A stretch of 51,909 nucleotides of DNA, counting the filler, from Barthelona sp. PAP020 (lineage: Eukaryota), in the NCBI GenBank assembly GCA_040182905.1. It is 2 parts of 2 records of this genome, joined end to end, with 100 filler letters (N's around TTAATTAATTAA, not from the genome) between each part and the next. Parts side by side here need not be neighbours in the genome. Positions count along the whole stretch, not along the records: positions 26,035 to 51,909 come from JARQWU010000142.1; 1 more part is not named here. One strand, given 5' to 3'. The notes below the pieces were generated by a model. That model saw only the letters and a list, made by a program, of their open reading frames with translations, was not told the DNA's origin and ran no database searches. The position numbers and the translations under genes are program-made. Positions 10,585-45,508 of this stretch are shown here, in pieces (within the stretch, counting starts at the first letter, position 1; each line of letters begins with the position of its first letter).

Positions 10585-10870
10585 TCTAAAAAAAAAGGTT
10601 GTTAATTTTATCCTCTCCTTTTTTTTTTGTGTTTCCCAGCGATTCATTAATTCCTTCTTTTATTCATATTTTTTATCAATGTAAACCTTCTTTTTACCAT
10701 TGTTCTTTAATTTTTAGCTCCCATTCTATTTTTTTAAAAAAACCTTAATTGGTTTTTTATCTATTTATAACGGAAATAAAACTTTTTTGAAATGATTTTT
10801 AATGATATACCAAAAAAATGTTGAGATTAAATTGAGGGAATCAAAAAAATATTTTGTTTGTTTTGTTATC

Positions 10871-13800: not shown

Positions 13801-14062
13801 ACAGGGAATGGACGCTGTTGATGTTACTCCCATCTCACATAGAAGACAAACACCTCCACCTTTTCTTGATACACCGATGGAAACTACTTTAGAGGTTTCA
13901 AAATTAACGTACAAGGTTGTGGCTAAATACACCTCACCTGTTATTGCGTTAAGATCGATACAAATGGGGAAAGACAAGGTATTATTGTGTTTGTTTGAGG
14001 ACAGTTCCACAGAAATATTAGCTCATAGATTTAAGGAAATAAACAATCATGGGTTATATTGA
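10871..14062 (+). CDS. Large beta-propeller protein, possibly DDB1/CPSF160/SF3B3 family
   Basis: About 1060 aa and beta-rich; N-terminal RYELNSVILSVVSIPLPQRFSDAIIILCESLELFVFIYE resembles the family's first propeller; very divergent. Confidence 0.45.
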   Translation: MSIFSCKSQYVTQITPFIIGDMPQAILVGLSSFELVNFSNNSVRSLARYELNSVILSVVSIPLPQRFSDAIIILCESLELFVFIYENKQFIKLHSIVLSAPNEEYYLAGSIMPLGFNLSSGFSFATVIVQSTVFWIEFNESVFRSVEIGDISSVVSGYDARRVRRYILPSSPLLLSGSDYMIPVQCVFDKYVSLISFVVSRPFNFNISTCVLRPGLFSMGPFDSRIYVMSLENHFLIISHQGCVTILNSTSTSPCELHNLPIQAGCTLLSSNHLYFNVVVSLNDVRDVLALIKIQKSNGKLTSITKFEKVPVFNDIVPVSTNLCVGLSKAGTALLIAVEGNNCKVVNWHAFTSSHLLKSVCIVHWPNSRQLPPIVVGSLKHGRGAHFGPPSIGVTHMLHYKSNGMVPLNVFNCKDSNSIYLVTPERSVKIELNPKNLKEMEVIALLQEQLFVNDESFFITSKRIEINGERLPEIDSIRTASMHKDIAAIVVDNTIKVFQSNKLLFCEITLDFKPDIVFWIEMGWQRCLVVQSHLDRQTRIFGLQQGFYRALDDEEMGDLKNLFQVYTSCTRVTDNRVAYTAVGGLNGEFAVFVNTTKIFETQMGITEGIVTVRPCLWIRESNESIPLFIICCASGIFLASAHINNFIFVSFLSTGYYDWFDALPLKDCKLLLCREDGIYDALVHLDQGSILDLSSTQTIVDSPPDLISSMPHLDTVVTVSQNPGQKSVHLSMLRFRGAALTIEDSISVAVEGPVHDMFSVEADPTPQISGPSPVCFIGLVSSILNFNRIDLQTFMHDVSLRPLTQQSVLTIFQVYVDEDSHFRFAGVTPHMLPAAVTVTGVHGLGFVVTDSDALCIKLLIPKGLPAKVFCAGLVRLPATARVEYLFATPLLDDTGKGRYFYVLSVSRGFITLCRFREMVTHTGSVFVGKILAHDKWKHKKITSHYSLSSGKFLLALNNGKMLLVDASKEKHQIQLPSQGMDAVDVTPISHRRQTPPPFLDTPMETTLEVSKLTYKVVAKYTSPVIALRSIQMGKDKVLLCLFEDSSTEILAHRFKEINNHGLY

Positions 14063-17966: not shown

Positions 17967-18006
17967 TAACCAAATAAACTTCACTCAGCACAGGTTCCTA
18001 TTCTTT
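17967..18006. other. Internal complementary region (ICR-like) of the DIRS-like element
   Basis: 17967-17979 pairs with 17930-17942; 17980-17993 with 17899-17915 (3-nt bulge); 17998-18006 with 17920-17928. Confidence 0.75.
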
Positions 18007-20861
18007 CAAAAGTTCCCATAGCTTAGAATAGCATCATGGGATGAGTGTCCCAATTCTTCACGAATAACGGACAATGCTTTGTCCCTGGACATACCCTCTG
18101 TTATCAGTTCACGGAATCGCTTCTGTGCAAATGAACGACGAAAGTCGTGGGGTTTAATTCCCAGCCCTCTCAGCTTTGTTCGAACCCTTCTAATTAACTT
18201 AGTGAATTCCTTTTCGGTAGGTATATGATTAAAGCATAGGTATGGAGCACAGTCGTGCCTTGTCATAATCATTTGTTGGATGAGTTCCCCTTGTGGGGAT
18301 GATATGCCCAGGAGAGGGATCTTTTTGCAAACCCTTCTTGATTTTAAGCCCTTTGCGTCATCATCTGTTGCGCAAATGATGGAGAGCGATAGATCGGTGT
18401 TGATCTCTATTTTGTCTTTGCCAAACATGGGATTGCGAGTTCTTACTGCCTCGCCAATTCTTGCCCCTGTGAGTAGCATTACAGCAATTACTGTCATAGC
18501 TTGGTCGTCCCAAGTTCTTCTCTTTGAGCCCCAATTTAAGATGAATTGAGCATTAAGCTCACCAAAGGCTCCTTCTTTGATTATTTTAGGCGCTGCTCTG
18601 CTCGACGCCAGGCTTCCAATTGTTCTTCTCGTTGCTGTTAGTAGTGGATCTCCTATGATTCTTCTAAACGCGTCTGGCGCTTCTGTTTTGGCTGTTGCTA
18701 AGATCCCTGATAAATAATTCCTCATGGTCTGAGGTTGTATGTCTTCCTCCCGCAGATGCTGCAGGAACTGGAGAATGTGATCAATATTGATCTCTTTGAA
18801 TTTAAAGGCGTGCTTACGTTCCTTCATGAAGGTAATGAACCTTCGAGTTACTGAGGTATAATTGTCTCTCGTGGTCTTCTTTGTCGAAGCCATCAGGAAC
18901 TCCTTTGCCTCCTTGGAAAGGCCGGATATTTGTCCAGTGTTTGTCCTCTTTGTCTGTAGCCAAAAGGACAATGGGCTGTTTTCGATTCCGACCTTATGTC
19001 GAATTGTTGCTTCGGGTCGGTTTGACCTGAACGATTCCTTTAGCCAATCTTCTACGATATGTATTTGGCTTCCTTCTAAGTAAAGATTTCCCTCGTCGTC
19101 CGTAATTGTCGGGAGAGGGACAATGAAGTTACCTTTTCTCTTCCTAAAAGAGCCGTGTCCAATGGATAGCCTAGCTTGCTCTTGCATCTCTGGTGGTAAC
19201 TTTTCTACATTTGTGATTCTTGGGGCAGGATGAATCCTCCTCATGAGGTTTCTGCTCCCTTCCTTCTGTTGGTTATTTCGACCATCAATGACTGCCTGCC
19301 TTCTTGCTGGGCCTCCTGTCTTTGGTCTTCTCGTTGCTCCTCCTGGTATCACTTCCGGCCACATTCCGGGGTTGGCCAGGGGGTCATAAAATGATTTTGG
19401 TGTCTGTGGAGGAATTGTAATCATTGCGGGTAACTTTTGCTTGCCGCTATTTTCTCCATCATAATTCTTTTCTCTTGATAAGGCGTCTGCTATTATGTTT
19501 TCCCTTGTGCTGATGTAACGCACTTCTAAAAAGACACCTTCTTCACGGGCGAACTTTCTTATTTCTTGCCCTTCTTCGCTTAATGCCTGGCTCTTTGCCC
19601 GGCCTTCTAATGCTGCGATTGCGTTTTTGTTGTCGCAGTAAATTAAAATATTCGAACCCATGGGTAAATTTGGGGTTACGGCCTTGACTGCTGATCCCAC
19701 GGTTCTTAATTCTTTTAGGGCGATTGTTTTGCCCTCTTGTTCTCCGAATTTTAACGTTTGACCGGAGTCAAACACAATACATCCTGCTCCATCCATTGAC
19801 GCGTCTGTTGCGATGACGATGGATCTCGGTTCTACCGACAGTGGGATTGGTTTTATTCTTGCCAACTCAGTCGGGATATTTCTAACGATCTGCTCTGTCT
19901 CTGTCGTCAAGCGGATTCTCTTGGATTTTTCCTTGCTCTTATTTCCTGCCAGTAATCTGGCTACTCTTGTTTTAGTAATGTATAAGTCCTTATGAAAAGT
20001 GAAGGCGAATTCTAAATATCCGCTTAACTTTTGAATGTCTCCTATGGTTGTAGGATTTTTGAAATCCTGACAAAACTGTGCTAACTTGGCTCTCTTTGTT
20101 TGCTGTAGGATTACCAATGCCTCGTTTTCACCAAAGAGGAATGTCCATCCTCTGAAGTCAATTATCTTAGTAGGAGAGAGCCTTGATTTCTCAATATTTA
20201 TTTTCAAGTTTGCATTCTTAAACAGGGCGATAGTGCTTTCCACTGCCCTTCTTACTTCTTGTTGTGATTTGCCGACGATTAAAATATCGTCCAAATAGTA
20301 CGTTATCTTGATTTGCTGTCTCCTTAAGTGTCTTACCAATACACTCATCATTGAGGAGAAATAACTTGGTGCCACGGCTAGTCCGAATGGCAATTTCTTA
20401 GCTTCAAAAGGTTCCTCATCGAACCTGACACCCATCAATCTATAGTATTGTGGGTCCATTTGCATGTGATGATAGCCATCACTTAAATCTAAAGACGCTG
20501 CATAACGTGCGCCTTTGAAGAAAAAGGGGTCAATTGGTTCATACTTAAATGGGTATATGGGAGCCAATTGGTTTGATTCTCTAAAATCTGTGATGGTTCT
20601 TAATGACCCATCCGCTTTTGGGACGAAGAACACATCTGCCTCAACGCTTGGCTCTTCGTTATGATTCCATTTCTTTACTGCGCCCGAGTGGACTAGCTTC
20701 TCGAAAGCAAGTCTCTTGTCCTCGGTTAACTCATTGTGAGTGTGATTACGTCTAATACGTAATCCTTTCTTTGATTGTTCTACTGGCACTCCCCTTACAA
20801 TAGCACTGAGGAGTTCTCTTTTTGCCCCTAGTTCTTCAAAGAGTAGGGGGTTGAGCCCCAT
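18006..20861 (-). CDS. Fused reverse transcriptase - RNase H - tyrosine recombinase polyprotein (951 aa)
   Basis: RT: FFVPKADGSLRTITDFR, LDLSDGYHH, LPFGLAVAP, YYLDDILI. DIRS-type RNase H: IATDAS, KELRTV, YCDN, NIIADALSR. YR: core-binding helices (TRDNY..RF, TMRNYLSGI), GARIGE, PHDFRR, LGHSS, terminal Y. Confidence 0.95.
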   Translation of the reverse strand: MGLNPLLFEELGAKRELLSAIVRGVPVEQSKKGLRIRRNHTHNELTEDKRLAFEKLVHSGAVKKWNHNEEPSVEADVFFVPKADGSLRTITDFRESNQLAPIYPFKYEPIDPFFFKGARYAASLDLSDGYHHMQMDPQYYRLMGVRFDEEPFEAKKLPFGLAVAPSYFSSMMSVLVRHLRRQQIKITYYLDDILIVGKSQQEVRRAVESTIALFKNANLKINIEKSRLSPTKIIDFRGWTFLFGENEALVILQQTKRAKLAQFCQDFKNPTTIGDIQKLSGYLEFAFTFHKDLYITKTRVARLLAGNKSKEKSKRIRLTTETEQIVRNIPTELARIKPIPLSVEPRSIVIATDASMDGAGCIVFDSGQTLKFGEQEGKTIALKELRTVGSAVKAVTPNLPMGSNILIYCDNKNAIAALEGRAKSQALSEEGQEIRKFAREEGVFLEVRYISTRENIIADALSREKNYDGENSGKQKLPAMITIPPQTPKSFYDPLANPGMWPEVIPGGATRRPKTGGPARRQAVIDGRNNQQKEGSRNLMRRIHPAPRITNVEKLPPEMQEQARLSIGHGSFRKRKGNFIVPLPTITDDEGNLYLEGSQIHIVEDWLKESFRSNRPEATIRHKVGIENSPLSFWLQTKRTNTGQISGLSKEAKEFLMASTKKTTRDNYTSVTRRFITFMKERKHAFKFKEINIDHILQFLQHLREEDIQPQTMRNYLSGILATAKTEAPDAFRRIIGDPLLTATRRTIGSLASSRAAPKIIKEGAFGELNAQFILNWGSKRRTWDDQAMTVIAVMLLTGARIGEAVRTRNPMFGKDKIEINTDLSLSIICATDDDAKGLKSRRVCKKIPLLGISSPQGELIQQMIMTRHDCAPYLCFNHIPTEKEFTKLIRRVRTKLRGLGIKPHDFRRSFAQKRFRELITEGMSRDKALSVIREELGHSSHDAILSYGNF

Positions 20862-20889
20862 TCGGCTCTCATCTTTCTGTATAATAACA

Positions 20890-21570
20890 TTACTTCTTCT
20901 CCTTTCCGCTCTCGCCGTGCCGCGGAGCTGACTGCTCCCTATTTTTATTCTTTTCTTTCGAATTTGAGGGTGTTTTCTTTATAGCAGGGAGTTTCCTAAA
21001 TAGAGTCGCTTCTACCCCAACAGCGTCTGCAAAAACGCTTTGAAACTCATATACATATCCAAATAACTTGGTTTGTCTTCCCTGTCCTAGTTGTAGGTGA
21101 ATTGACATCATGAACTCCTGGAATTCATCTTCAGAAAGATTCTGACCACACCAAAACACAAGTTCTATCAGATCTTGTAAATGGCGCATGGCCGCATTGG
21201 CATAACTCAAGCGTAGTCTGGGGTAAAATGTTTCCCCCTTCTTTTCGTCTAACTCTAAGCTTTGTTCCATAATTTTTCCTCTAATCTTGGAGGTCACACT
21301 CATGTTTCCTCCTCTATTCTTATCCATCAGAAGCTGCATCAACATATTTTGATTTCTTCTGAGTTCTTCCAAGGTTTCGAATGGAACCTGAACAAAATGT
21401 TTTCGCCCTTGGGCATCTCCCTTTGCATTACTAGCCAATTCTTCCTCCTCGACTTCTTCTTCCTCGTCATCCTTATTATCCTCAATGGATCCTTGATCGA
21501 CGGTCTGCAAATCTTGCACAAAGTCCGCATATTCGGCCATGTTATCCTTGTTACGTTTCGCTGTAGACAT
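20890..21570 (-). CDS. ORF1 (gag-position) of the DIRS-like element
   Basis: 226-aa ORF between the 5' ITR and pol; acidic N-terminus, basic C-terminus; assigned by position only. Confidence 0.75.
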   Translation of the reverse strand: MSTAKRNKDNMAEYADFVQDLQTVDQGSIEDNKDDEEEEVEEEELASNAKGDAQGRKHFVQVPFETLEELRRNQNMLMQLLMDKNRGGNMSVTSKIRGKIMEQSLELDEKKGETFYPRLRLSYANAAMRHLQDLIELVFWCGQNLSEDEFQEFMMSIHLQLGQGRQTKLFGYVYEFQSVFADAVGVEATLFRKLPAIKKTPSNSKEKNKNREQSAPRHGESGKEKK

Positions 21571-23599: not shown

Positions 23600-25720
23600 T
23601 CACAAAATATCACTCAAAATTTCAATTGCGTTTAGACAACACTTTTCTTCAAATTCATTTGATGGATCAATAGCTTCAATAAGCTTCCATAATTCCTCAT
23701 ATTGTTCTGAAGAAAGTTCAAATTGTCTTTGATTCAATAAAAAACAAATTAAACACAAGATAACTCCATCAAAACAACCAGTTTCAATATTTTTTGAATA
23801 AATTTCAATGATGAAGAGAAATAACTCATTCAAAATTTCATTTTCAACTTTTAATATTGGAAAATCACTAATCTTTTTCAATTGTAAAAGTTTCCCAAAC
23901 ATTTTGAATTTTTTATTCACCAATAATTTCTTTAATCGATTGCAATTATCGTCTAAACTGGAAATTATTGAATTTATTGATTCAGCAGTGATTGTCAATT
24001 TGCTATAAAATAATTTGAACATTTCGATGTCATCATTGCTAGAATGCAATGTAGCCACTTTCAACAATTCATTTAACCAAATCTCAATATCATCCCAAAT
24101 ACTGGCATCAACGTTTGGCATAACATCTGTGGAAGGGTATACCATTGAAATTTGAGGCATAATAGGTTCAGTTTCAATATGAATGGATGATGGTACCATT
24201 TCATAATTTTCAAAGTTTTCAAAGTTTTCAAAGTTTTCATAATTTTCATAATTATCAAAAGGTTCAAAAGGAGCAAATGTTTCAGGAACCATAAAATTAT
24301 CAATTGTTGAAGAATTTTGAAAAGGTTGGAAATTTTCAAACAATTTATTTTCCAATTTTGATTTCAATTTTGAACAATCAAAAAAAAAGATATCTTTTGA
24401 TATTGAATGAACAGCATAAATGTAATGATCGACCACAATCCAATTATATAAAGAAGAAACATCAAGTTTATACAAAGGAATAATATTTAGATGATTAGAA
24501 AAAGCAGGTAAAGGAGAAATTTTATCATCCATTTCAAATAATAATAAAACGTTTTCAAAAATGATGGTTAATAATATTCTTTCTTCTTTTTGAAATGGAA
24601 CAATGAAAGAATGTATAATTTTTGATTTAAAATAATTTTTCCATTTTGGAGCATAGGTATCGATAGGTAATTTTGTATAATTATGTGGATATAAAGAAAA
24701 GAAGATTAAAGTACCTTCAGAATTAATAATTAAATAATGGTTATCCAATTCTTTTGAATACATGTTAGCAATTCTCCTAGAATTTGCTAGATTATAGAGA
24801 TAAACAGAATTCTTAATAATCATCTCTTTATCATCATTTATTACTTGATAATCATTTAAAACATCTAAAAATTCATATTTTAACATATTTTCTTCATATA
24901 AATGACAATAGATGAAAATTAAATCTTCTCCATTCATTGTAAACTTAGATAAATATTTTTTAAACTTATGAACTTTTAAACCATTCTTTCCAGAAAAAAT
25001 AATTTGTCTCCCATTTTCATTTTCACAAAATTTTTGGGACTTTTGAAACTTTTGAAACTTTTGACCAATTCTTACTAAATTTAAAAATCTAAAATTTTCA
25101 AATGAATAATAAATCAATAATGTTTGACTTTTCACATATAAATAATTGAAAATTAAATCTTTTGATGGAGACTTTATCATAAAAACAAGATCTACACCAG
25201 TCAAATCAAATTCATATACACATATCAGATAAGAAGTTACCAAAAATATTTGATTATCAACTAATTCTAGTTGTTTAATTGAATTCTTTATTGAAATCTT
25301 TTTCCCATTGGAAAAATAATATAAATCAACAATATTATTGATACGTTTCTTTTTTGTATCAATAATTACTAATTGAGGACTCATATTTTGTTCAGTATTG
25401 ATACAAAATACTAAATATTGGCCAAAATTAAAACTGAATCGAATTATATTATGTTGTTTAAATATTTCTAAATCGTTCATCACAAGTTCAAAAGAATATT
25501 CATTTTCATCTTCTTTGACATTTGTATCAAAATCATGCGTGGAATTATCAAAATCTAAAGTTAAATCACATGCATCAGTAAAATGGTTTTCAAAATATTC
25601 TTTTAAAGCATTCAAATCATATGGATCCTTATTTTTCATACAATTCTTTTCATCAATAACATCTAAAAAAAAGAAAATTTCTAATTTGTGTCTTTTTATC
25701 AATATGAATATGGAATTCAA
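23600..25720 (-). CDS. Hypothetical protein (beta-rich N-terminal region, ENF/ENY repeat linker, helical C-terminus); start uncertain
   Basis: 706-aa ORF; about six 9-nt repeats near 24200-24255; no confident family assignment. Confidence 0.65.
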   Translation of the reverse strand: MNSIFILIKRHKLEIFFFLDVIDEKNCMKNKDPYDLNALKEYFENHFTDACDLTLDFDNSTHDFDTNVKEDENEYSFELVMNDLEIFKQHNIIRFSFNFGQYLVFCINTEQNMSPQLVIIDTKKKRINNIVDLYYFSNGKKISIKNSIKQLELVDNQIFLVTSYLICVYEFDLTGVDLVFMIKSPSKDLIFNYLYVKSQTLLIYYSFENFRFLNLVRIGQKFQKFQKSQKFCENENGRQIIFSGKNGLKVHKFKKYLSKFTMNGEDLIFIYCHLYEENMLKYEFLDVLNDYQVINDDKEMIIKNSVYLYNLANSRRIANMYSKELDNHYLIINSEGTLIFFSLYPHNYTKLPIDTYAPKWKNYFKSKIIHSFIVPFQKEERILLTIIFENVLLLFEMDDKISPLPAFSNHLNIIPLYKLDVSSLYNWIVVDHYIYAVHSISKDIFFFDCSKLKSKLENKLFENFQPFQNSSTIDNFMVPETFAPFEPFDNYENYENFENFENFENYEMVPSSIHIETEPIMPQISMVYPSTDVMPNVDASIWDDIEIWLNELLKVATLHSSNDDIEMFKLFYSKLTITAESINSIISSLDDNCNRLKKLLVNKKFKMFGKLLQLKKISDFPILKVENEILNELFLFIIEIYSKNIETGCFDGVILCLICFLLNQRQFELSSEQYEELWKLIEAIDPSNEFEEKCCLNAIEILSDIL

Positions 25721-29474: not shown

Positions 29475-32438
29475 ATGAAAATAGGAATTATTGAATTATT
29501 ATTCACTTTCATATTTTTTTCAATTTTGAGTCAATGTGCAATACTATGTTCACCTGAATATTCGATTGAAACTCAAACAATTACAGTTGGTGATGAATCT
29601 TTTAATTGGTATCTTCATTTACAACTGGGTGAATATCGTTCCTTTGTTGAAACTGTTACTTTTAAGAATTCATATTTGGAGTTACCAGAAGTATCTTATT
29701 CAATTACAAATGTGGATTGTGAAAGTAGTGCACCAACAGTAAAGTTGACAATTATTCATTTATCGAGAGAAGATGTAACGTTTCAAATATCAACTTGGGG
29801 CAATGCTACTGTTAGAATGGTGACTTTTTCATTCATTGCTATTCGAACAGAATGTGCAAATGAAAATCAAGCTACCACTTTCAACACACGATGGTTATCA
29901 AAGCAAGGACCTGATAGTCCTTATTGGCAAATGGATGCTGTTAATTCTTGGCAAAATGAATACATATTGTCAAATCCTCTTGAAAATGGGAATGATGGAT
30001 TGTTTTCTTTGCATGGAATCACAGGATTTGATTTCACGAATGCAAAAAGATATGCAATAGATTCCAAAGTCATTGACTCTTCGACAGGATCATTGAAACT
30101 GGGTATTACAACCTATCAGAACAATCCAATCGAAGGGGCAAGCATTTCTGCTGTTGTGCTGAATCCTACGGGTTTGGACCGATTTCATTTCGATTATGAC
30201 GTTATAAAAATCAATTCATCTTTGCCTGCTTACAATCTGCACGCCACTGATGCAGGCATTCGAAGGTATACTTTTACAATTCCGTTTCGCAGTTCCTTTT
30301 TACATATTCCACATCTTCAGTTCAGTACGATCAGTTTTGATACTGCCAATACTCCTTTGAGGTATAGGATTGATATTGTTGACACAACTTTTGATGACGT
30401 AACTTTAACTGTTTCTGCTTATGATGGGTGTCAGTTACTATCATTAGCGCTCGACTTTTTTGCTTTTGACACCATACATTCAGGATGGAGCGATGAAGAT
30501 TGGTATATTTTGATTGGTTTTTTTGTGATGTTATTATTTGCTATTATGTGGGAAATTGCTTCTTGTTGTTCTCGGTCTGATGTTGGGAATGAAAAACCAA
30601 TCATTGTGCCAAATGTCGCACCTGTTGAGGATGAATTTGAGAGTATCTGTCAATCAGAACAGGACAAAATAAATTTTGAGACTCAGGGACAGATTGCATG
30701 TATTCCTCTGAGTAAAATTGTTCCAACTAGTGAATCAGAAGTTGTTAATGCAAAGCAACAAGTAGAAGAACTTCAAGAGTTGTTGAGAAAGCGTAATGAG
30801 CAAGAATTATTGAGAAAAGGTATTAGTCGAACTAAATTTGAGGAATATTCTTTGACTATTCTTAGCATCCTTTTTACTCTTGCTATCTTTATTGTTTTTA
30901 TGAGGTTTGTGATGGAATATAAGTTATTGCATCGTTTGGATGGCATTTTTCTTTCATTGATGATTATTGGTCTGGAATACGTTTTATTGATTGTTGCGGT
31001 TATATTTCAAGACATTCCAACAAACACTGTGTTGCCAAGAAGACACGATGATGTGGCTATATTGATTGCCTCCCATAATTCTGCCAATGCACCTCCAAGA
31101 AAAGATAACGTTGGGTTTTTCAATAAGGGTATTACTGACCAAGAACTGAAGAATATTGCAGATGAAAAAGAATCTGGATTTCTTTTTACCTTGAAGAATT
31201 GTGCTTTACAAGTTCCTGACGGTCATGTTTATGTGTGTCATAATGGTCCTTGGAAATCACCACCGGAAGGAGATAGAACATTGAGTTCCTGTGAAAAAGT
31301 GAAGAAATGGGGGCGAAAAGTACAATATGTTTATGTACCTGTTGGTTCCAAGACTCTAGCATTGCTTTGGACTGCTAAATATTTTTTACCCAAGAAAATT
31401 AAATATGTAGTCATAATGGATGATGATATCATCTTGCCTTCAGATATATCTTTTCAAACTGATGTTTTAGCGCAATCTATGTATGCTGGTGCAGCTATGA
31501 CGATTCGTACTGCACCAAATAAAACCACTTTAGGTCCTTCTGGTCGTTCACCACTTGTTTGGTATCAAGATTTAGAATACTCTCTTGCTGGGTTTGCAAA
31601 AGCTTTCCAAAGAACGACTGGTACTGCTGCTTGTCCTCATGGAGCAATTTCAATTTGGAAAAAGAACTATCTCGCCGATGTGTTAGAACGGCATAATTCT
31701 GTGTTTAATGGGGAAGATATGCAAATGGGTTTCATCCTACGTGAAATGTATCCTCAACTTGGATGGCAGCCAGTATTACATTGTCTTTCTGCTACTCCAG
31801 TTTTAACACAGGTTCCAGAAGATCTTTTTATAGCTAAACAAGATTTATTGTTTCAACCAGCATATGGAGAGAAATCATTGTTTGCACAGCGTGTTAAGTC
31901 TTGGGATGTCACTGCTCATCGATTCTTCTTCAAGTTGGCGAAGCATTTCCTATTGTTTTGGAATTCAAAGACCATTGTATTGAGACTTTATTATCTCCAT
32001 GAGATGCTCACGATCATTCAAGACTTTTTGAGAATTCTTATCGTTGTCTACTACATCTCGTTGAATGAAGCATCTACATTGTGTATTTTGGGATTTAGGA
32101 TTATTGAATTTCAGATTATTCTGTTTATTGTGTTCAATTACATTAAGTTGAGAAATCGAAAAGATTTGAGAACTCCTTTATGGGTTATTCTCACGTTTCC
32201 CATCTACCGATTGCTCTTGTTGGTTTTTAGAAATTTTGCGATGATTTATAACTTGTTCTACTATTTGCCAAAGAAAGCAAATTTTGATGTTTTGCTGAAT
32301 GATCCGGATCGTTTACCTGTTTTCCACCCAATTATGACCAAGATTGCACAGAATCCAAAGAATTGGAATATTATGTGGAAGTCTGAGGTAATTACTGATT
32401 GTTTGGATGAAAATGGCCAGCTTAAATCAATCAAATAA
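29475..32438 (+). CDS. Membrane GT2 processive glycosyltransferase (chitin/hyaluronan-synthase-like) with signal peptide and three N-terminal H-type-lectin-like domains
   Basis: Signal peptide; three ~100-aa repeats (VTF..Y..PEV..SIT..D...TFQISTWGN..V.FSFIA; IPF..SF..IP..D..LRY.I..VTLTVSAY..L.FFA); TM helices; GSKTLAL, MDDD, HGAISIW, GED, QRVKSWD; C-terminal TMs. Confidence 0.8.
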   Translation: MKIGIIELLFTFIFFSILSQCAILCSPEYSIETQTITVGDESFNWYLHLQLGEYRSFVETVTFKNSYLELPEVSYSITNVDCESSAPTVKLTIIHLSREDVTFQISTWGNATVRMVTFSFIAIRTECANENQATTFNTRWLSKQGPDSPYWQMDAVNSWQNEYILSNPLENGNDGLFSLHGITGFDFTNAKRYAIDSKVIDSSTGSLKLGITTYQNNPIEGASISAVVLNPTGLDRFHFDYDVIKINSSLPAYNLHATDAGIRRYTFTIPFRSSFLHIPHLQFSTISFDTANTPLRYRIDIVDTTFDDVTLTVSAYDGCQLLSLALDFFAFDTIHSGWSDEDWYILIGFFVMLLFAIMWEIASCCSRSDVGNEKPIIVPNVAPVEDEFESICQSEQDKINFETQGQIACIPLSKIVPTSESEVVNAKQQVEELQELLRKRNEQELLRKGISRTKFEEYSLTILSILFTLAIFIVFMRFVMEYKLLHRLDGIFLSLMIIGLEYVLLIVAVIFQDIPTNTVLPRRHDDVAILIASHNSANAPPRKDNVGFFNKGITDQELKNIADEKESGFLFTLKNCALQVPDGHVYVCHNGPWKSPPEGDRTLSSCEKVKKWGRKVQYVYVPVGSKTLALLWTAKYFLPKKIKYVVIMDDDIILPSDISFQTDVLAQSMYAGAAMTIRTAPNKTTLGPSGRSPLVWYQDLEYSLAGFAKAFQRTTGTAACPHGAISIWKKNYLADVLERHNSVFNGEDMQMGFILREMYPQLGWQPVLHCLSATPVLTQVPEDLFIAKQDLLFQPAYGEKSLFAQRVKSWDVTAHRFFFKLAKHFLLFWNSKTIVLRLYYLHEMLTIIQDFLRILIVVYYISLNEASTLCILGFRIIEFQIILFIVFNYIKLRNRKDLRTPLWVILTFPIYRLLLLVFRNFAMIYNLFYYLPKKANFDVLLNDPDRLPVFHPIMTKIAQNPKNWNIMWKSEVITDCLDENGQLKSIK

Positions 32439-33649: not shown

Positions 33650-34844
33650 ATGTCTGCTGATTTAATAGATGAATTGATGGGGAAAATGATTCATGACATC
33701 CTTCCTCACAAAATTGATAAAACCAGTCTAAGAATAATTGAGGGCGTGCTTTCTGGTAGTTTTTGGATTGTAAATATTCACCAGATGGTAAAAGTTTGGT
33801 TGTTGTTGGCGAAACACAGGCTCATGTAATTGATGCAGAAACTGGAAGGCTAAACCGTACTTTGGAAGATCGTTTACTTCGTGTATCTGCTGTTGCTTTT
33901 TCACCTGATGGTCAAAAGTTGGCAACATGTTCTTTTGATTATTCTGTTATCATTTATAATCTTCAAGATTTCTCCATTTTGAGAAGAATGAATTACAATA
34001 CCTTTGTTTTTGGCATTTGCTTTTCACAGCGTTCGAATTACATATATTATGGGGATGGAGATGGAGTTCTTAAGAAGTGGGATGTAAATAATGGCAATAT
34101 TGTATTTGATGAACATATTAATTCTCGACATATATGGAGAGTCAAACTTTCAATAGATGGTAAGTGTCTTTTCACTTGTAGTTTGGATAAAACTGTCAAA
34201 TTGCTTGACCCTTCTAATTTTGTTGTTGCTTAAACATTCATTCATGACAGCATTGTCAGGTCTATTTATTTTCATCCAACAAAAAGAATTGTCATGTGGA
34301 GATGAATCAAAGAAGGCTAAGCTCTGGGACATAGACGACGGAACATGTATTTACACCTTTAACATGAGCGAGCAAGTGGGCTCTTCATTCCTTTACATCC
34401 CGATTCCTGTTTATTATGTCTGGAGATAGGTATATTACCTCATGCAATGTGGATAGTTTTGAGAAGATTCAAAAGGTACATTGCGGTTGTACTGTCAAGC
34501 ACTTCTCATTTTGTGTATCTCCTGATGAGACAAAGTGAGTTTGTGGAGGTATGAGGATAAACTTAGACTGTATTCAATCATTCGGTTTTGTAATTCTACA
34601 CATCAGTCCAAACTCATTAAATTATCGAAGAACGGTGGCTACGTGTTGTCGAATCTTATTTCTATGAATATGAGCACTTTAATCATTAGAAAATTAATAG
34701 TTTCTGGTATTTGTATAAATACAGGGGAGTATGAGATGATTGTGAACACTTTGGGATTTAGCCAATGTTAACCAGACTCATGGCAATAATATGCACACAT
34801 TTATCAGTGGAACTAGTGATGAAAGTGATGAGGATGACGAGTGA
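33650..34844 (+). pseudogene. WD40 family pseudogene with several lesions
   Basis: ATG 33650, frameshift near 33760, in-frame TAA 34231-34233, further frameshifts; retains FSPDGQKLATCSFD, HIWRVKLS.DGK, HQSKLIKLSKNGGYVLSNLISMN and the acidic tail. Confidence 0.85.
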
Positions 34845-41989: not shown

Positions 41990-44900
41990 TTATTTGTTGT
42001 TTGAAGTTATTGCAGATGTGGCTGAAGGGTTGATGATTTGATCAATGAAATTCCTATCAAACTTCAACTTTTCTTTGATTCTCTTTTCTGAATTAATTTT
42101 TAAAGAATCACAACATAAATGCAAGGGAGTATTCTTTGGAATGAACAAAATAAAGTCTTCAACACTCATTTTCCTTGCATAATAAGTCAAAATATGCGAT
42201 AAAATATCTGTATTTTCAAAGAAAGTTTTTGTTAAAAATGTGGCAACATCTAATTCCAAAGGCGCATTATCAATGAAAAAATATAAATCTTTAAGTGTAA
42301 AATCAAGTAAATGTGGGTTCAAAATTTGATCTTTGAGCCAATTAATTGTGCTTTCAAAATAAGACTCATGTTTCAATCCAATCAAGGCAATAAAACAAAA
42401 CAAATGCTTTTTTCTTAAGATATCAACATTTTCATCGTCCAATAATGAATAAGCTAATCCCTGATTCACATTCAAAATAGTATCGAGAGTCTTTTTGCTG
42501 AAAAACAAACCAAAAATTTCAATAATCTTGTTCAGTTTCATTTTATCGATGTTGAGCCCAGTAAAGTAATGTAAAGTTACTAAAAACATCTTTTTAAGGA
42601 TTCTATCAATAATATCATCCACAAAAAAAGATTTTTTCTCATCTTTGAAAAAATCAAACTCGTTTTCATCATTTGCTAATAAACGATGCTTATCTTTAGT
42701 TTCTATTGGATAAGCCAAACAAGATAAGTATAAATGTATCAAATTAACAACGAAAAAATGACGATTTGTCATTAGAAATTTTTCAATGCATATACGATCA
42801 GAAATGGTTAAATGAGTCAAAGGAATTTTCCATCCCAACAGATGCAACCCTTGTTTAATTGTAATTATTTTCTCATTCAACAATCTATCAACGATATTTA
42901 CAACCAAGGAAGGACTTTCATTTCTTAAGAAGGTTAGCAAAGTAATAGGGGTTTTTTCCGAATCTACCTCATCATTCATATGATTCATGTTAGTGTTTAC
43001 ACAAGCCAAATCCATTTGCAATAAATTTACATGGTTTTCCAGAATATATTCCAATAGAAAAGCCTTATCTAATTGTTCAAAAAAATACATTGTCGTCTTT
43101 AAGGAACTGTTCGTCTCAATGCTTAATAAAAGGCCTGCCAAACGATCAACCTGTTCTAATTCAACAATTTCACCAAAGCATTGCTCGTTTTTATTAGTAT
43201 TGTTAATGGACATCAAGCTAAAATGAAAACCATCTTTGTTATTGTAAATAATTCTTTGTTTTATGCTTTGTTTCAGCCATAAAATCATCTCTGATGGTTT
43301 ATATTGTTGAAATTGACTATATAGTATAAATTTACCCAATAAAAAAAGGTATTTAGATTTTAACAATGTGATTATAGCATTAGAAGTGGATTGTAACTCA
43401 AAATATATTGAATCGATAGTTGAGGGATTAAAACTAGCCGAATAATAATATCTCAAACGAACATTTTGAAATATGGGATTATTTGTATATTCAAACACTT
43501 CTTCAGCAGTTAAATCACTTAAAGCTAAACAATTAGCAGTGATCTCAGTCAAATATAATTCTCTTTCTTGATTAAGATTTGAAGGCGTTAAATGTCCAGT
43601 ATTTGTCATAAAATCACTCAACTTCTTCAATAAAATTACACCTAACAAACCAAATACAAATTTAATCAACCTTTCTAAAGCAGTAATACATATCTGTTGA
43701 CTAACCTGATATAATTTAATCGTATGTGTATGGATATGAGAGTTTTTAGTGTTTGATGAACATAATAAATCTGCTTCTTTTTTTAACTGTTGCCCAGAAA
43801 ATCGAGGCTTCCCAGCAACAGGTTTTGGGTAGTATAATGAACCATCTTCATTAACATTATCGATCCTACCCAAAGACTTGATCAAAAAATGTACTAATTC
43901 GATCAAACGAAATAGATGTGCTGGATTGGAAAACATTTCAAACAATGCAACACTTGAATCAGTGGCATTATGTCCATTATTAATCACATCTCTTGTGCTG
44001 ACTCTTTCTCTTCTGTTTTTGTTTTTTGAAGTTTTTTCAAATGCAAATGAAGGTTGTAAACTCTCTAACCATTCATCTGCTAAGACTAAATCCTCATATA
44101 GTAAGCCTAAATGAACATCTTTATGTCCTTCAACACAAGAGAACAACAAACATAAGCCTTCCAAAAAAACTATCTCCTTCACTGACATAATGAAATATCG
44201 TGAAAGAAGGTAATGAGACAACACAGATTTATTATCATTAAAAAATGATTTTTCAATTGTCTGTAACTCCTCAGGTTTCAATAAATCATTCACAAATGAA
44301 CTAAAAATAAAATATACTTCAATAAACTGTTCAAATGCCAAAACGCATAAAGTAGATGAACATTTCATTTCTACAATGGGAAATGATGTTACTTTTCTTT
44401 GCAACAATTGAGGTTTATTCTTCATTTTGATAAAATAACTCTCTTGCTGTCTATCAAATGCAATAATTATCAAACATCGAGCTTTTTTAACATCTACACT
44501 GATGTTAGGTGGTTCTACTAAAGTAACAACTACATTTTTTGGAGGTGTATCGATGGTAATGTCAAAAAAATGATCTTTTCCTGAACAAACATGTTTAAAG
44601 ACCAAGTATAATTCATACTTGACACTTTTATCAATTTCCTCTTCAAACAACACAGAATTACACGGATGAGCATAATATTTTTCTGTTACTTCAGGATAAA
44701 AAAGGGAAACCAAATTTAAATCAATCGCAAAAGAATTCTGATTCTCTATCTCTATCTTGTCAAATAAAGAGCTTTCAACATTTGTTATAATTGTCTGATG
44801 GAGTTGGAATGCCATTAAACAATGGGTAAATGACAAAGCTATGAAACGATTCATGTATTTAACTTCAATTAGATCTTCAATAGGCATACCAAATAGACTA

Positions 44901-45508
44901 AATTTCGTAATCAATTTGAATGCACTCCCAAAATCGTTCCCAAACTCATACAAAGAAAAGGTGTCTTCACTAACAACTAATAATTCTTGTGAAAACTCAC
45001 AAAAACATGATTTGATTACATAAGGAAATAATTTCAGCAAAACAAACTTTGGTGAAACAATTGATTTGTCTCTTATCTCAAAAACACTTGTTTTCACTTC
45101 TATATCTTCTTCATCCCCTTTAATATAGTAATCTTCGTCATCTGAATAAATTTGGAAATCATTGATGACATCAGAATCATCATTCGAAAATTTTATCCGC
45201 CAATCGTAATAAGCAATCAAATGATAATCTCCATTTTTATCAATTTCTAAAGTAATAATGGAATCCAGGTTCTTGGAAAAAAATAAAGATTTTATTTTGA
45301 GAAATTGACTTTGAAACCAAAAAACAGGTACTTTTAAATCATTATGGTCAAAAATATGTATCATTCCATTATCAAACCCACATATTACACAATTTGGTCC
45401 ATTACACGCATGAATTAAATTGTCAGTGTGATTTAATGGCAAGCAGCTTTGAAAAATTGTTAAATTTTGTGATGACTGAAATGAATCAAACTGATTATTA
45501 ACAAACAT
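41990..45508 (-). CDS. HPS3: HPS3-like (BLOC-2 subunit)
   Basis: N-terminal FQS..KIKSLFFSKNLDSIITLE..LIAYYDWR and C-terminal LTYYARKMSVEDFILFIP parallel HPS3 motifs as recalled (YSEAGDYLVAIEE..LRAYVNWR; L..LA..LSPEEFL.LLP); propeller plus solenoid size. Confidence 0.7.
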   Translation of the reverse strand: MFVNNQFDSFQSSQNLTIFQSCLPLNHTDNLIHACNGPNCVICGFDNGMIHIFDHNDLKVPVFWFQSQFLKIKSLFFSKNLDSIITLEIDKNGDYHLIAYYDWRIKFSNDDSDVINDFQIYSDDEDYYIKGDEEDIEVKTSVFEIRDKSIVSPKFVLLKLFPYVIKSCFCEFSQELLVVSEDTFSLYEFGNDFGSAFKLITKFSLFGMPIEDLIEVKYMNRFIALSFTHCLMAFQLHQTIITNVESSLFDKIEIENQNSFAIDLNLVSLFYPEVTEKYYAHPCNSVLFEEEIDKSVKYELYLVFKHVCSGKDHFFDITIDTPPKNVVVTLVEPPNISVDVKKARCLIIIAFDRQQESYFIKMKNKPQLLQRKVTSFPIVEMKCSSTLCVLAFEQFIEVYFIFSSFVNDLLKPEELQTIEKSFFNDNKSVLSHYLLSRYFIMSVKEIVFLEGLCLLFSCVEGHKDVHLGLLYEDLVLADEWLESLQPSFAFEKTSKNKNRRERVSTRDVINNGHNATDSSVALFEMFSNPAHLFRLIELVHFLIKSLGRIDNVNEDGSLYYPKPVAGKPRFSGQQLKKEADLLCSSNTKNSHIHTHTIKLYQVSQQICITALERLIKFVFGLLGVILLKKLSDFMTNTGHLTPSNLNQERELYLTEITANCLALSDLTAEEVFEYTNNPIFQNVRLRYYYSASFNPSTIDSIYFELQSTSNAIITLLKSKYLFLLGKFILYSQFQQYKPSEMILWLKQSIKQRIIYNNKDGFHFSLMSINNTNKNEQCFGEIVELEQVDRLAGLLLSIETNSSLKTTMYFFEQLDKAFLLEYILENHVNLLQMDLACVNTNMNHMNDEVDSEKTPITLLTFLRNESPSLVVNIVDRLLNEKIITIKQGLHLLGWKIPLTHLTISDRICIEKFLMTNRHFFVVNLIHLYLSCLAYPIETKDKHRLLANDENEFDFFKDEKKSFFVDDIIDRILKKMFLVTLHYFTGLNIDKMKLNKIIEIFGLFFSKKTLDTILNVNQGLAYSLLDDENVDILRKKHLFCFIALIGLKHESYFESTINWLKDQILNPHLLDFTLKDLYFFIDNAPLELDVATFLTKTFFENTDILSHILTYYARKMSVEDFILFIPKNTPLHLCCDSLKINSEKRIKEKLKFDRNFIDQIINPSATSAITSNNK

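What the first reader, a model, noticed from the sequence alone, without database searches (positions are those of the whole stretch)
29475..32438. Processive GT2 synthase fused to three H-type-lectin-like domains: candidate Gal/GalNAc wall-polymer synthase
Seen: signal peptide, three ~100-aa repeats (about 29562-30468) with an H-type lectin pattern, TM helices, then a GT2 core (DDD, GED, QRVKSW in place of QxxRW) and more TMs. Known: H-type lectins (Helix agglutinin, discoidin C-domain) bind GalNAc/Gal and act as trimers; the Giardia cyst wall is a beta-1,3-GalNAc polymer whose synthase gene has, to my knowledge, not been firmly identified. Inference: an extracytoplasmic single-chain lectin pseudo-trimer could hold the extruded chain. 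I do not recognise this architecture from described proteins.
Basis: partly seen in the sequence, partly recalled or inferred. Interest (0 to 1): 0.85.

Follow-up and report, generated by a model that had tools for sequence, protein, structure and literature searches.

The report
Sugar-polymer synthase with triple lectin cap
This protist gene encodes a membrane enzyme predicted to fold like the synthases that make hyaluronan, cellulose and chitin, joined to three snail-lectin-type domains on the outer side of the membrane that likely hold the sugar chain it would extrude; the design was found only in one small group of anaerobic flagellates, and its product is unknown.

Summary
ORF 29475-32438 (+) is intact and encodes 987 aa with this layout:
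- a signal peptide;
- three homologous H-type-lectin domains. Pfam PF09458 scores E 1.2e-15. An ectodomain model (pLDDT 85, pTM 0.86) matches Helix pomatia agglutinin and discoidin;
- a TM helix, an ~90-aa cytosolic linker and two more TM helices;
- a divergent GT2 core with DDD, QDLEY, GED and QRVKSW;
- C-terminal membrane helices.

The C-terminal half of the full-length model matches hyaluronan synthase best (Z 23), then cellulose and chitin synthases. The archaeal mannosyltransferase PcManGT ties with hyaluronan synthase.

The lectin+GT2 fusion is not common. In a search of 1.84 billion representatives and in the word searches, it appeared only in unnamed "hypothetical proteins" of barthelonid and skoliomonad metamonads. 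The window protein is sister to the Barthelona sp. PCE copy. The GT2 core belongs to a larger uncharacterised eukaryotic subfamily whose signature is QRV[R/K]SW, not QxxRW.

Gal/GalNAc specificity is not supported, because the lectin pocket aromatics are only partly kept. No Giardia relative was retrieved. Wall or cyst function, processivity and substrate are all inferred.

Verdict: a real, lineage-restricted new variant of a membrane polysaccharide synthase. It is moderately interesting, more so because some paralogues carry kinesin motors.

The parts
29475..29549 (+). Predicted signal peptide (residues 1-25); the cleavage site was not computed
   Evidence: Hydrophobic segment 1-27 with peak hydropathy 2.11. 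In the kinesin- and Hsp70-fused paralogues it aligns with a hydrophobic stretch that I read as a membrane anchor (by eye).
29556..29852 (+). H-type lectin domain 1 (residues 28-126)
   Evidence: Pfam PF09458 43.9 bits. The A1 profile hits discoidin-2 2vm9 at E 6e-4 and HPA 2ce6 at E 1.8e-3. In the ectodomain model this domain matches discoidin I at Z 7.7, rmsd 1.8, 95 aa, and HPA at Z 6.5. Foldseek gives HPA 2ccv TM 0.80.
29853..30182 (+). Divergent H-lectin-like domain 2 (residues 127-236), with a low-confidence loop at about residues 150-165
   Evidence: No Pfam hit when scanned alone. hhalign to D1 gives 89.5% (E 2e-6) and to D3 86.4%. The third Pfam stretch in P0002/P0004 presumably lies here, but its position was not printed. 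The ectodomain model has beta-strands 135-204.
30183..30482 (+). H-type lectin domain 3 (residues 237-336)
   Evidence: Pfam PF09458 28.0 bits. hhalign to D1 gives 98.4%, E 1e-14. pLDDT is 90-97.
30501..30569 (+). TM helix 1 (residues 343-365), running from outside to cytosol
   Evidence: Hydropathy peak 2.31. Helix 340-370 in the model.
30570..30836 (+). Cytosolic linker (residues 366-454), acidic then Lys/Arg-rich and helical, variable in length among relatives
   Evidence: pLDDT below 50, with a long helix at 420-449. Poorly conserved in A1.
30837..31001 (+). TM helices 2 and 3 (residues 455-509), which bring the chain back to the cytosol
   Evidence: Hydropathy peaks 2.56 and 2.64. The GLEY motif is conserved. 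Residues from 485 on fall within the aligned range 485-930 against CvHAS 38-452.
31017..31874 (+). GT2 (GT-A fold) catalytic domain, residues 515-800, with H589-N590, G624-S-K626, D649-D650-D651, Q698-D-L-E701-Y702, H722-G-A724, G746-E-D748 and T778..P781
   Evidence: Pfam PF13641 31.3 bits. Column counts over 109 family members. Structure matches.
31887..31904 (+). QRVKSW motif (residues 805-810), the family's variant of Q(Q/R)xRW
   Evidence: Over 109 sequences: Q 107, R 107, V 77, R+K 78, S 95, W 106. It aligns to QRFGRW in P0007.
31965..32261 (+). C-terminal membrane helices (residues 831-929)
   Evidence: Helices 831-862, 866-892 and 902-929. Hydropathy. They lie within the aligned range up to residue 930 against CvHAS, XlHAS1 and BcsA.
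32262..32438 (+). C-terminal tail (residues 930-987) and stop codon
   Evidence: pLDDT below 50. A conserved DP..LP..HP stretch is shared with the close relatives.

Best explanation
The ORF encodes a 987-residue membrane protein with three tandem H-type-lectin domains outside the membrane and a cytosolic GT2 domain that, with its flanking helices, is predicted to fold like hyaluronan, cellulose and chitin synthases. It likely polymerises a nucleotide-sugar into a chain that it would thread through its own membrane pore towards the lectin cap.

Shown here:
- the domain order;
- the lectin and GT2 family matches;
- conservation of the catalytic-type motifs;
- the synthase-like fold;
- restriction of the fusion to barthelonid/skoliomonad-type metamonads.

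Inferred topology. After signal-peptide cleavage the three lectin domains lie outside. TM1 enters the cytosol, and TM2/TM3 form a hairpin, so the GT2 domain is cytosolic next to the C-terminal helices.

Inferred mechanism. DDD (649-651) would hold the nucleotide-sugar and metal. D748 of GED would be the catalytic base. W810 of QRVKSW would stack on the acceptor end at the pore entrance. The three lectin domains, predicted to pack as a single-chain pseudo-trimer, would receive, hold or organise the emerging polymer. Alternatively they would tether the enzyme to glycan already laid down. This would work much as BcsB's carbohydrate-binding domains do for bacterial BcsA (recalled from the BcsA-BcsB structure papers).

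Most likely biological role (inferred): making a surface or cyst-wall polysaccharide. The sugar is unknown.
For: Lectin module:
- Pfam H_lectin E 1.2e-15.
- Three homologous repeats.
- The ectodomain model has pLDDT 85.2 and pTM 0.86.
- It matches HPA (Foldseek prob 1.0, TM 0.80, 26% id), discoidin I (Z 7.7, rmsd 1.8, 95 aa), HPA (Z 6.5) and SLL-2 (Z 5.7).
- The matches that span the whole ectodomain are single-chain three-fold proteins: PCSK9 C-terminal domain (Z 8.6, 201 aa), single-chain C1q head (Z 7.5, 237 aa), single-chain adiponectin trimer (Z 6.6, 241 aa) and the TgPLP1 beta-prism (Z 5.8, 237 aa).

Synthase half:
- Pfam GT2 hit above the cut-off.
- Foldseek's top hits are XlHAS1 (E 2.4e-10), CvHAS, BcsA, Chs1 and PsChs1; 140 hits reach E<=1e-3.
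- VIA-align gives CvHAS Z 23.2 (371 aa, rmsd 3.4, model 485-930), XlHAS1 21.3, BcsA 17.3, CesA1 16.0, Chs1 14.5 and CslF6 14.4.
- Motifs are conserved in 109 family members: DDD 108/100/108, E701 109, Y702 108, D748 108, Q805 107, R806 107, W810 106.

Topology: hydropathy and charge pattern.

Context:
- The H-lectin-bearing synthases form one clade (100/99), with the window sister to Barthelona sp. PCE (100/96).
- Skoliomonas TZLM3-RCL forms double-walled cysts (PMC11603281, passages).
- Paralogues with N-terminal kinesin motors in three Skoliomonas genomes recall the motor-fused chitin synthases of fungi (recalled). They fit a polymer synthase that is delivered to specific sites.
Against: - The full-length model is weak (pLDDT 56.6, pTM 0.45, 6 sequences).
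- PcManGT, a membrane GT2 mannosyltransferase not known to me as a polymer-translocating synthase (recalled), matches as well as HAS (Z 23.0 against 23.2). The fold alone therefore does not prove processivity.
- The canonical QxxRW spacing is not kept: the motif is QRVKSW, and QRV[RK]SW family-wide.
- By eye I saw no WGTR-type motif after it.
- No solved GT2 is detectable by sequence. No chitin-synthase Pfam model hits P0001 at E<=1.
- The lectin pocket is only partly conserved, so sugar binding itself is unproven.
- The CofB H-lectin domain binds a peptide and not GalNAc (PMC6048534 passages).
- TEM of three barthelonid strains, including PCE, showed no extracellular structures, and that paper never mentions cysts (PMC13087550; 0 occurrences of 'cyst').
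- The neighbouring genes are housekeeping, with no sugar-nucleotide or wall genes.
Confidence: 0.55

Rival explanations
1. The GT2 half is a non-processive membrane glycosyltransferase. It would add single sugars to a lipid carrier, glycolipid or protein, as PcManGT or dolichyl-phosphate sugar synthases do. The lectin module would then be a separate surface function on the same chain.
For: PcManGT (6yv7) ties with hyaluronan synthase: Z 23.0, 325 of 346 residues aligned, model 480-931. The motif is not canonical QxxRW. There are only about three C-terminal membrane helices, and the match to CvHAS stops at its residue 452. No extracellular material was seen on barthelonid trophozoites (PMC13087550 passage).
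Against: Q, R and W of the QRV[RK]SW motif are kept in 106-107 of 109 members, together with GED and QxxEY-type motifs typical of polymerising GT2s (the motif meaning is recalled). The top Foldseek hits are all polymer synthases. Fusing an extracellular glycan-binding-type module to the same chain makes most sense if the product emerges outside.
Confidence: 0.15
2. The enzyme is a polymer synthase, but the triple H-lectin module does not bind its product. It would be a repurposed scaffold that binds a protein partner or an unrelated ligand (for example prey-bacterial glycans, in a bacterivore), or it would only oligomerise and position the enzyme.
For: The pocket Trp is kept only in domain 1 of the short subgroup (and in domain 2 of P0002, P0004 and P0011), and it is lost in the kinesin and Hsp70 subgroups. 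The pocket Tyr position is Arg/Lys. CofB's H-lectin trimer binds a peptide in the expected sugar site and shows no GalNAc binding (PMC6048534 passages). Discoidins recognise bacterial methyl-rhamnose glycolipids (bioRxiv 10.64898/2026.06.18.733164 passages). Sister GT2s carry quite different ectodomains, Cys-rich or CotH, so the outer module is exchangeable.
Against: The module has been kept in every member of a well-supported clade across four or five genomes, in the same position next to the membrane. This argues for a role coupled to the synthase. H-type lectins are mostly glycan binders (PMC8431231 passage).
Confidence: 0.22
3. It is specifically a beta-1,3-GalNAc (Giardia-type) cyst-wall synthase.
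For: H-type lectins are mainly GalNAc-specific (PMC8431231 passage). The Giardia synthase gene was still called unidentified in the papers seen (PMC2924369 passage of 2010; PMC13315228 passage of 2026 speaks of an activity 'tentatively called' CWS). Barthelonids and skoliomonads are sister to Fornicata (PMC13087550 abstract). Skoliomonads encyst (PMC11603281 passages).
Against: No Giardia or other fornicate protein appeared among the 6, 20 and 30 hits. The GalNAc pocket is not conserved. Nothing in the GT2 core identifies the donor sugar.
Confidence: 0.08

Closest known systems
Class I hyaluronan synthases (Chlorella virus HAS, Xenopus HAS1)
   Same: They give the best structural match to residues about 470-930: TM hairpin, GT-A domain, interface helices and C-terminal TM helices. 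Z is 23.2 and 21.3, and Foldseek E is 2.4e-10. A DxD-type acidic cluster and a (G)ED-type motif are present.
   Different: There is no detectable sequence similarity. The motif is QRVKSW rather than QxxRW. There are fewer C-terminal helices. HAS has no extracellular domain, no signal peptide and no extra N-terminal TM.
Bacterial cellulose synthase BcsA with its partner BcsB
   Same: BcsA matches at Z 17.3. Functionally, BcsB places carbohydrate-binding domains on the exit side of the pore (recalled). This is the closest precedent for what the lectin cap would do.
   Different: Here the outer module is fused in one chain, lies N-terminal to the synthase, and is of the H-lectin fold. There is no PilZ or c-di-GMP control. 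This is a resemblance in how it would work, not family membership.
H-type lectins: Helix pomatia agglutinin, discoidin I/II, SLL-2
   Same: Pfam family PF09458. The same beta-sandwich fold. The known lectins act as trimers with sites at the interfaces (PMC8431231 and PMC6048534 passages). Here three domains sit in one chain with a confident mutual arrangement (pTM 0.86).
   Different: The known ones are soluble homotrimers of one domain. Here a single chain carries three diverged copies anchored to a synthase. The pocket Tyr is replaced and the pocket Trp is kept in one domain only.
Uncharacterised eukaryotic GT2 subfamily with the QRV[R/K]SW signature (hypothetical proteins from metagenomes, Phalansterium, Anaeromyces and BaSk genomes)
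   Same: The window protein is a true member by sequence. The search gave 1203 representatives at E<=1e-3 and 141 at E<=1e-30 (the weakest of these may be other GT2 families). The motifs are shared, and so is the ectodomain-TM-linker-2TM-GT2-TM layout.
   Different: The members checked outside the barthelonid/skoliomonad genomes lack H_lectin. They carry Cys-rich, CotH or unknown N-terminal parts. No member with a known product was found.
Motor-domain chitin synthases of fungi (class V/VII, myosin motor; recalled)
   Same: Paralogues of this family in three Skoliomonas genomes carry an N-terminal kinesin motor. The logic is the same: a cytoskeletal motor fused to a membrane polymer synthase.
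   Different: The motor is a kinesin rather than a myosin. The window protein itself has no motor. Chitin-synthase Pfam models do not hit the window protein.
PcManGT, archaeal membrane GT2 mannosyltransferase (6yv7)
   Same: It ties for the best structural match: Z 23.0 with nearly full coverage of the 346-residue chain.
   Different: It uses GDP-mannose (PMC12595478 passage) and has no ectodomain. There is no sequence-level match here.

Membership tests
H-type lectin domain (Pfam PF09458) | Sequence match to the family model above the curated cut-off | tested here: met
   57.8 bits against a cut-off of 24, E 1.2e-15. Domain 1 scores 43.9 bits and domain 3 scores 28.0 bits alone. Domain 2 is linked only through profile-profile comparison.
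H-type lectin domain (Pfam PF09458) | Beta-sandwich fold superposable on HPA or discoidin | tested here: met
   Foldseek HPA 2ccv prob 1.00, TM 0.80, 26% id, though E is only 1.8e-3. VIA-align gives discoidin I Z 7.7, rmsd 1.8, 95 aa, and HPA Z 6.5, rmsd 2.3, 90 aa. The model has pLDDT 85.
H-type lectin domain (Pfam PF09458) | Three-fold assembly with binding sites at domain interfaces | tested here: inconclusive
   pTM 0.86 for the three-domain chain. The whole-length matches are single-chain three-fold proteins at Z 5.8-8.6. By the tool's own note, this range can reflect only a common arrangement. Model coordinates could not be inspected.
H-type lectin domain (Pfam PF09458) | Conserved Gal/GalNAc pocket aromatics (discoidin W235/Y241; HPA W83/Y89, the HPA numbers recalled) | tested here: not met
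   The Trp equivalent (W108) is kept in domain 1 only. The Tyr equivalent is R114. Domains 2 and 3 have Tyr at the Trp position. The pocket is lost in the kinesin and Hsp70 subgroups.
H-type lectin domain (Pfam PF09458) | Measured glycan binding | not testable with these tools
   Needs glycan arrays or ITC with the recombinant ectodomain.
Membrane-integrated processive GT2 synthases (HAS / chitin synthase / BcsA-CesA) | GT-A GT2 domain with an acidic DxD-type cluster and a (T/G)ED catalytic base | tested here: met
   PF13641 31.3 bits. D649/D650/D651 are present in 108/100/108 of 109 sequences. G746/E747/D748 are present in 88/89/108 of 109.
Membrane-integrated processive GT2 synthases (HAS / chitin synthase / BcsA-CesA) | Q(Q/R)xRW motif with canonical spacing | tested here: not met
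   QRVKSW at 805-810. Family-wide the motif is QRV[RK]SW, with Ser between the basic residue and Trp in 95 of 109 sequences.
Membrane-integrated processive GT2 synthases (HAS / chitin synthase / BcsA-CesA) | Catalytic domain packed on interface helices and a TM bundle, as in solved synthases | tested here: met
   CvHAS Z 23.2 over 371 residues, model 485-930; XlHAS1 21.3; BcsA 17.3. Caveats: the model has pLDDT 56.6, and PcManGT scores 23.0.
Membrane-integrated processive GT2 synthases (HAS / chitin synthase / BcsA-CesA) | Processive polymerisation coupled to translocation | not testable with these tools
   Needs an in-vitro synthesis assay or a structure with bound polymer.
Chitin synthase (Pfam PF03142 / PF01644) | Match to the chitin synthase family models | tested here: not met
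   No hit for P0001 at E<=1. Only weak sub-threshold hits appear in two distant family members: P0017 16.5 bits and P0049 22.7 bits, against a cut-off of 27.
Giardia cyst wall synthase (beta-1,3-GalNAc polymer synthase) | UDP-GalNAc-specific, encystation-induced polymerising activity; the gene was not identified in the papers seen | not testable with these tools
   There is no reference sequence. No Giardia-named protein was among the hits. No RNA runs were listed.

The most novel reading that the evidence does not exclude
The three lectin domains form a built-in, single-chain version of a trimeric lectin that sits over the exit of the synthase pore and hands the nascent chain to the wall. This would be a one-polypeptide eukaryotic counterpart of BcsA-BcsB. 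Together with its kinesin-driven and Hsp70-like-fused paralogues, the family would be the cyst-wall or surface-polymer machinery of barthelonid and skoliomonad flagellates. It would make a hexosamine polymer akin to the Giardia GalNAc fibrils.
Probability: 0.2. Interest if true: 0.8.

Novelty: new variant of a known kind. Interest (0 to 1): 0.6.

Why it matters
Membrane polysaccharide synthases normally end at the membrane surface. What receives the chain outside is known for bacterial cellulose (BcsB) but hardly at all for eukaryotes.

A synthase that carries its own extracellular lectin pseudo-trimer would be a compact, testable model of how a nascent polymer is captured and organised. The motor-fused paralogues would show an independent invention of "motorised" wall synthases outside fungi.

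The family also gives a concrete entry point to the unknown surface and cyst-wall chemistry of a deep-branching metamonad lineage that is sister to Giardia's group. In addition it defines a large uncharacterised eukaryotic GT2 subfamily (QRV[R/K]SW) with interchangeable ectodomains.

Tried and rejected
- Whole genome of the window: none is held.
- Sequence search of the GT2 half against solved structures: only chance hits at E about 1. The A1 profile found only H-lectins.
- NCBIfam: no family for P0001 or P0003.
- The exact protein is not in the 15-billion collection.
- Sequencing runs: none was listed and no RNA holder was listed, so nothing can be said on expression.
- Earlier notes of this scan: none for this genome or by sequence.
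- Fungal Tft1 mixed-linkage glucan synthase as closest relative: the preprint passages describe it as CslF6-like (29.5% identity to HvCSLF6), while CslF6 is only a mid-rank structural match here (Z 14.4). Not pursued.
- ZtGT2/CPS1 as relatives of the fungal-looking hit P0007: could not be tested, because no reference sequence was at hand (one search read only).
- Chitin synthase identity: rejected (see the membership test).
- RbmA-like FnIII hit on domain 2: 12-15 bits, below the cut-off of 27. Treated as noise.
- Foldseek on the ectodomain gave no hit at E<=1e-3. The H-lectin hits stand on probability, TM-score and the Pfam result.
- Literature: 'H-type lectin' + 'glycosyltransferase' + 'synthase' gave 1 paper, which was irrelevant. 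'H-type lectin' + 'domain architecture' gave 14 papers, 12 listed, none with this fusion in its title or abstract. The BaSk genome paper's main text has 0 mentions of lectin, glycosyltransferase, chitin or polysaccharide. Its supplements were not read.


Full report
**What is there.** The window is AT-rich (about 23-45% GC in 2-kb windows, mostly near 30%) and tightly packed with long uninterrupted ORFs. These encode eukaryotic housekeeping proteins: Vps26, Snf7, valyl-tRNA synthetase, a protein kinase, WD40 and ankyrin proteins. ORF 29475-32438 on the + strand is intact and gives 987 residues. It starts 240 bases after the stop of the upstream kinase gene, and AT-rich spacer follows it.

**Checking the observation.**
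- A hydrophobic N-terminus lies at residues 1-27. Six further hydrophobic segments lie at 343-365, 455-478, 487-509, 843-863, 866-890 and 900-922.
- Pfam finds H_lectin (PF09458) at E 1.2e-15, 57.8 bits against a cut-off of 24. It finds Glyco_tranf_2_3 (PF13641) at 31.3 bits against a cut-off of 27.
- Scanned separately, repeat 1 scores 43.9 bits and repeat 3 scores 28.0 bits. The middle repeat has no Pfam hit of its own.
- I cut the three repeats out of a six-protein family alignment and compared them profile against profile. This gave D1-D3 at 98.4% (E 1e-14), D1-D2 at 89.5% (E 2e-6) and D3-D2 at 86.4% (E 4.6e-6).
- Two homologues show three Pfam stretches. The three-repeat reading is therefore right.

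**The lectin module.** The ectodomain (residues 26-341) was folded with a 15-row alignment of family members. The model has mean pLDDT 85.2 and pTM 0.86.
- Foldseek's best real matches are Helix pomatia agglutinin (prob 1.00, TM 0.80 on the target, 26% identity), Helix aspersa agglutinin, SLL-2 and discoidins. None reaches E 1e-3.
- VIA-align gives discoidin I at Z 7.7 (rmsd 1.8, 95 residues), HPA at Z 6.5 and SLL-2 at Z 5.7 for the first domain.
- The matches that span the whole ectodomain are all single chains built from three beta-sandwiches around a three-fold axis. They are the PCSK9 C-terminal domain (Z 8.6), a single-chain C1q head (Z 7.5), a single-chain adiponectin trimer (Z 6.6), the TgPLP1 beta-prism (Z 5.8) and a single-chain APRIL-BAFF trimer (Z 4.2).
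- The tool warns that Z below 8 can reflect only a common arrangement, and I could not inspect coordinates. The pseudo-trimer is therefore well motivated but not shown.

**The sugar pocket is not conserved.** In the alignments to HPA and discoidin-2, the pocket Trp is kept in domain 1 (W108). Its partner Tyr is R114. In discoidins these two residues are W235/Y241 in DscA and W238/Y244 in DscE; they were mutated to kill binding (passages of bioRxiv 10.64898/2026.06.18.733164). Domains 2 and 3 have Tyr at the Trp position, and the motor-fused subgroups lose it altogether. H-lectin folds can also bind a peptide instead of GalNAc (CofB, PMC6048534 passages), and discoidins bind methyl-rhamnose glycolipids (the same preprint). 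So "Gal/GalNAc" cannot be read off the sequence.

**The synthase half.** The full-length model (6-row alignment) is weak overall, with pLDDT 56.6 and pTM 0.45. The GT2 core reaches 60-83.
- Foldseek's top matches are Xenopus HAS1 (E 2.4e-10), Chlorella virus HAS, E. coli and Rhodobacter BcsA, yeast Chs1 and Phytophthora Chs1.
- VIA-align gives CvHAS Z 23.2 (371 residues, rmsd 3.4, model 485-930), XlHAS1 21.3, BcsA 17.3, soybean CesA1 16.0, Chs1 14.5 and CslF6 14.4.
- The archaeal membrane mannosyltransferase PcManGT scores 23.0. The fold is thus that of membrane-integrated GT2 enzymes, but it does not by itself prove processivity.
- At the sequence level no solved GT2 is detectable, and no chitin-synthase model hits.

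**Family and distribution.**
- A word-indexed search of 5.8 billion clusters found 6 proteins. A search restricted to residues 505-930 found 20. A profile of 109 members found 30.
- An exhaustive HMMER profile search of 1.84 billion representatives found 1203 proteins at E<=1e-3, 483 at E<=1e-10 and 141 at E<=1e-30.
- Proteins that match across both the lectin and GT2 parts, or that carry Pfam H_lectin, are P0002-P0006, P0008-P0013, P0023, P0026, P0034 and P0171. All are "hypothetical proteins" of Skoliomonas strains TZLM1-RC, TZLM3-RCL and GEM-RC1 and of Barthelona sp. PCE.
- Of the 35 top representatives scanned with Pfam, 3 carry H_lectin, and all 3 come from these genomes. Of the 15 scanned, 6 do, again all from these genomes. 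The 9 from elsewhere do not.
- The other hits share only the GT2 core (profile positions about 583-960).
- In a maximum-likelihood tree of 21 GT2 cores (21 of the 109 rows of A3, chosen to cover the subgroups), the lectin-bearing proteins form one clade (100/99). The window protein is sister to the Barthelona sp. PCE protein (100/96). The window therefore most likely comes from a barthelonid-type metamonad whose protein is not in the collection.

**A distinct GT2 subfamily.** Over the 109 aligned members these positions are nearly invariant: N590, K626, D649-D650-D651, Q698/E701/Y702, H722-G723-A724, W728, H740, F744, D748, G752, T778, P781, Q805, R806 and W810.
- The last motif reads QRV[R/K]SW. 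Ser stands between the basic residue and Trp in 95 of 109 sequences. The canonical Q(Q/R)xRW is thus replaced family-wide by a one-residue-longer version.
- Close non-BaSk members (P0014-P0019, 839-888 aa, from metagenomes) have the same layout of ectodomain, TM, linker, two TMs, GT2 and TMs, and the same QRVKSW. Their ectodomain is Cys-rich and has no Pfam match.
- An Anaeromyces member carries a CotH domain. Phalansterium and Barthelona PAP020 transcriptome proteins also belong to the family.
- The outer module is therefore exchangeable on a conserved synthase chassis.

**Mechanism.**
- Shown: the domain order, the family matches, the conserved motifs and the fold.
- Inferred from hydropathy and charge: the lectin module lies outside, the linker 366-454 is cytosolic, a TM2/TM3 hairpin follows, and the GT2 domain is cytosolic.
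- Inferred by analogy with solved synthases (recalled roles): the DDD cluster binds the nucleotide-sugar and metal, D748 is the base, and W810 stacks on the acceptor at the entrance of a pore formed by the TM helices.
- Inferred: the lectin pseudo-trimer receives or organises the emerging chain, or tethers the enzyme to deposited glycan, as BcsB's carbohydrate-binding domains do for BcsA (recalled).
- I put this at about 0.55.
- The rivals are a non-processive membrane GT2 (0.15), a repurposed non-product-binding lectin scaffold on a true synthase (0.22) and the specific Giardia-type GalNAc synthase reading (0.08).

**Biological role.** Skoliomonas TZLM3-RCL makes double-walled, plugged cysts (PMC11603281 passages), so a cyst-wall polymer synthase is plausible in this lineage. 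Against a constitutive coat, TEM of three barthelonid strains, including PCE, showed a bare plasma membrane, and that paper does not mention cysts (PMC13087550 passage; 0 occurrences of 'cyst'). No expression data could be had.

**The Giardia link.** The Giardia synthase was "not yet molecularly identified" in 2010 (PMC2924369 passage). A 2026 review passage still treats it as an activity "tentatively called" CWS (PMC13315228). No Giardia or other fornicate protein appeared. These searches depend on shared 5-residue words, and the top-150 list carries no names, so absence is not proven. An earlier, unchecked note of this scan (e1-9947204) proposes a lectin-less, HAS-like diplomonad GT2 with an encystation-induced Giardia counterpart. 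I could not test whether it belongs to the QRV[RK]SW subfamily.

**Novelty.** The proteins are in public databases but unnamed. I found no paper describing an H-lectin-GT2 fusion (searches; the BaSk genome paper's main text has no mention; its supplements were not read). It is a new variant of a known kind, a membrane polysaccharide-synthase-type GT2 with a fused extracellular lectin pseudo-trimer, within a previously uncharacterised GT2 subfamily.

**Seen in passing.** Paralogues in three Skoliomonas genomes carry an N-terminal kinesin motor followed by a hydrophobic stretch read as a membrane anchor (P0005, P0008, P0012, P0171). Two carry an Hsp70/actin-like ATPase domain (P0006, P0034). Recurrence across species argues against gene-model artefacts, though transcripts were not checked. 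The kinesin fusion parallels the myosin-motor chitin synthases of fungi (recalled).

Noticed in passing
related proteins P0005, P0008, P0012, P0171 (not in the window): Paralogues of this synthase in three Skoliomonas genomes have an N-terminal kinesin motor domain (Pfam Kinesin E 2e-52 to 2e-61 for the three scanned here; precomputed PF00225 for P0171). A hydrophobic stretch read as a membrane anchor follows, then the lectin domains and the GT2. This would be a kinesin-fused counterpart of the myosin-motor chitin synthases of fungi (recalled). Gene models were not checked against transcripts.
   Followed up: partly
related proteins P0006 and P0034 (not in the window): Two further paralogues (TZLM1-RC and GEM-RC1) carry an N-terminal Hsp70/actin-like ATPase domain (Pfam HSP70 E 2.7e-48 and 5.2e-40) ahead of the lectin module. 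P0034 ends before the GT2 part.
   Followed up: partly
related proteins P0014-P0022, P0028-P0031, P0035: The GT2 core defines a large uncharacterised eukaryotic subfamily with the signature QRV[R/K]SW. Its N-terminal parts are interchangeable: Cys-rich ectodomains in metagenome proteins, a CotH domain in Anaeromyces robustus, and giant 2100-3200-aa proteins in Barthelona and Skoliomonas with no Pfam match outside the GT2.
   Followed up: partly
window 18006-21570, - strand: Two adjacent ORFs (951 and 226 aa). The larger has reverse transcriptase plus phage-integrase SAM-like (tyrosine-recombinase-type) domains, as in DIRS-like retroelements. They sit in a GC-rich island (38-45% GC against about 30% around it).
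   Followed up: no
window 33763-34233, + strand: A WD40-repeat ORF that starts only at a TTG and stands alone in a 2.7-kb stretch without other long ORFs. It may be one exon of an intron-containing or longer gene.
   Followed up: no
window 6975-9578, 10802-14062, 23600-25639, 41990-45508: Four long ORFs (867, 1086, 679 and 1172 aa) have no Pfam family at E<=1e-3.
   Followed up: no
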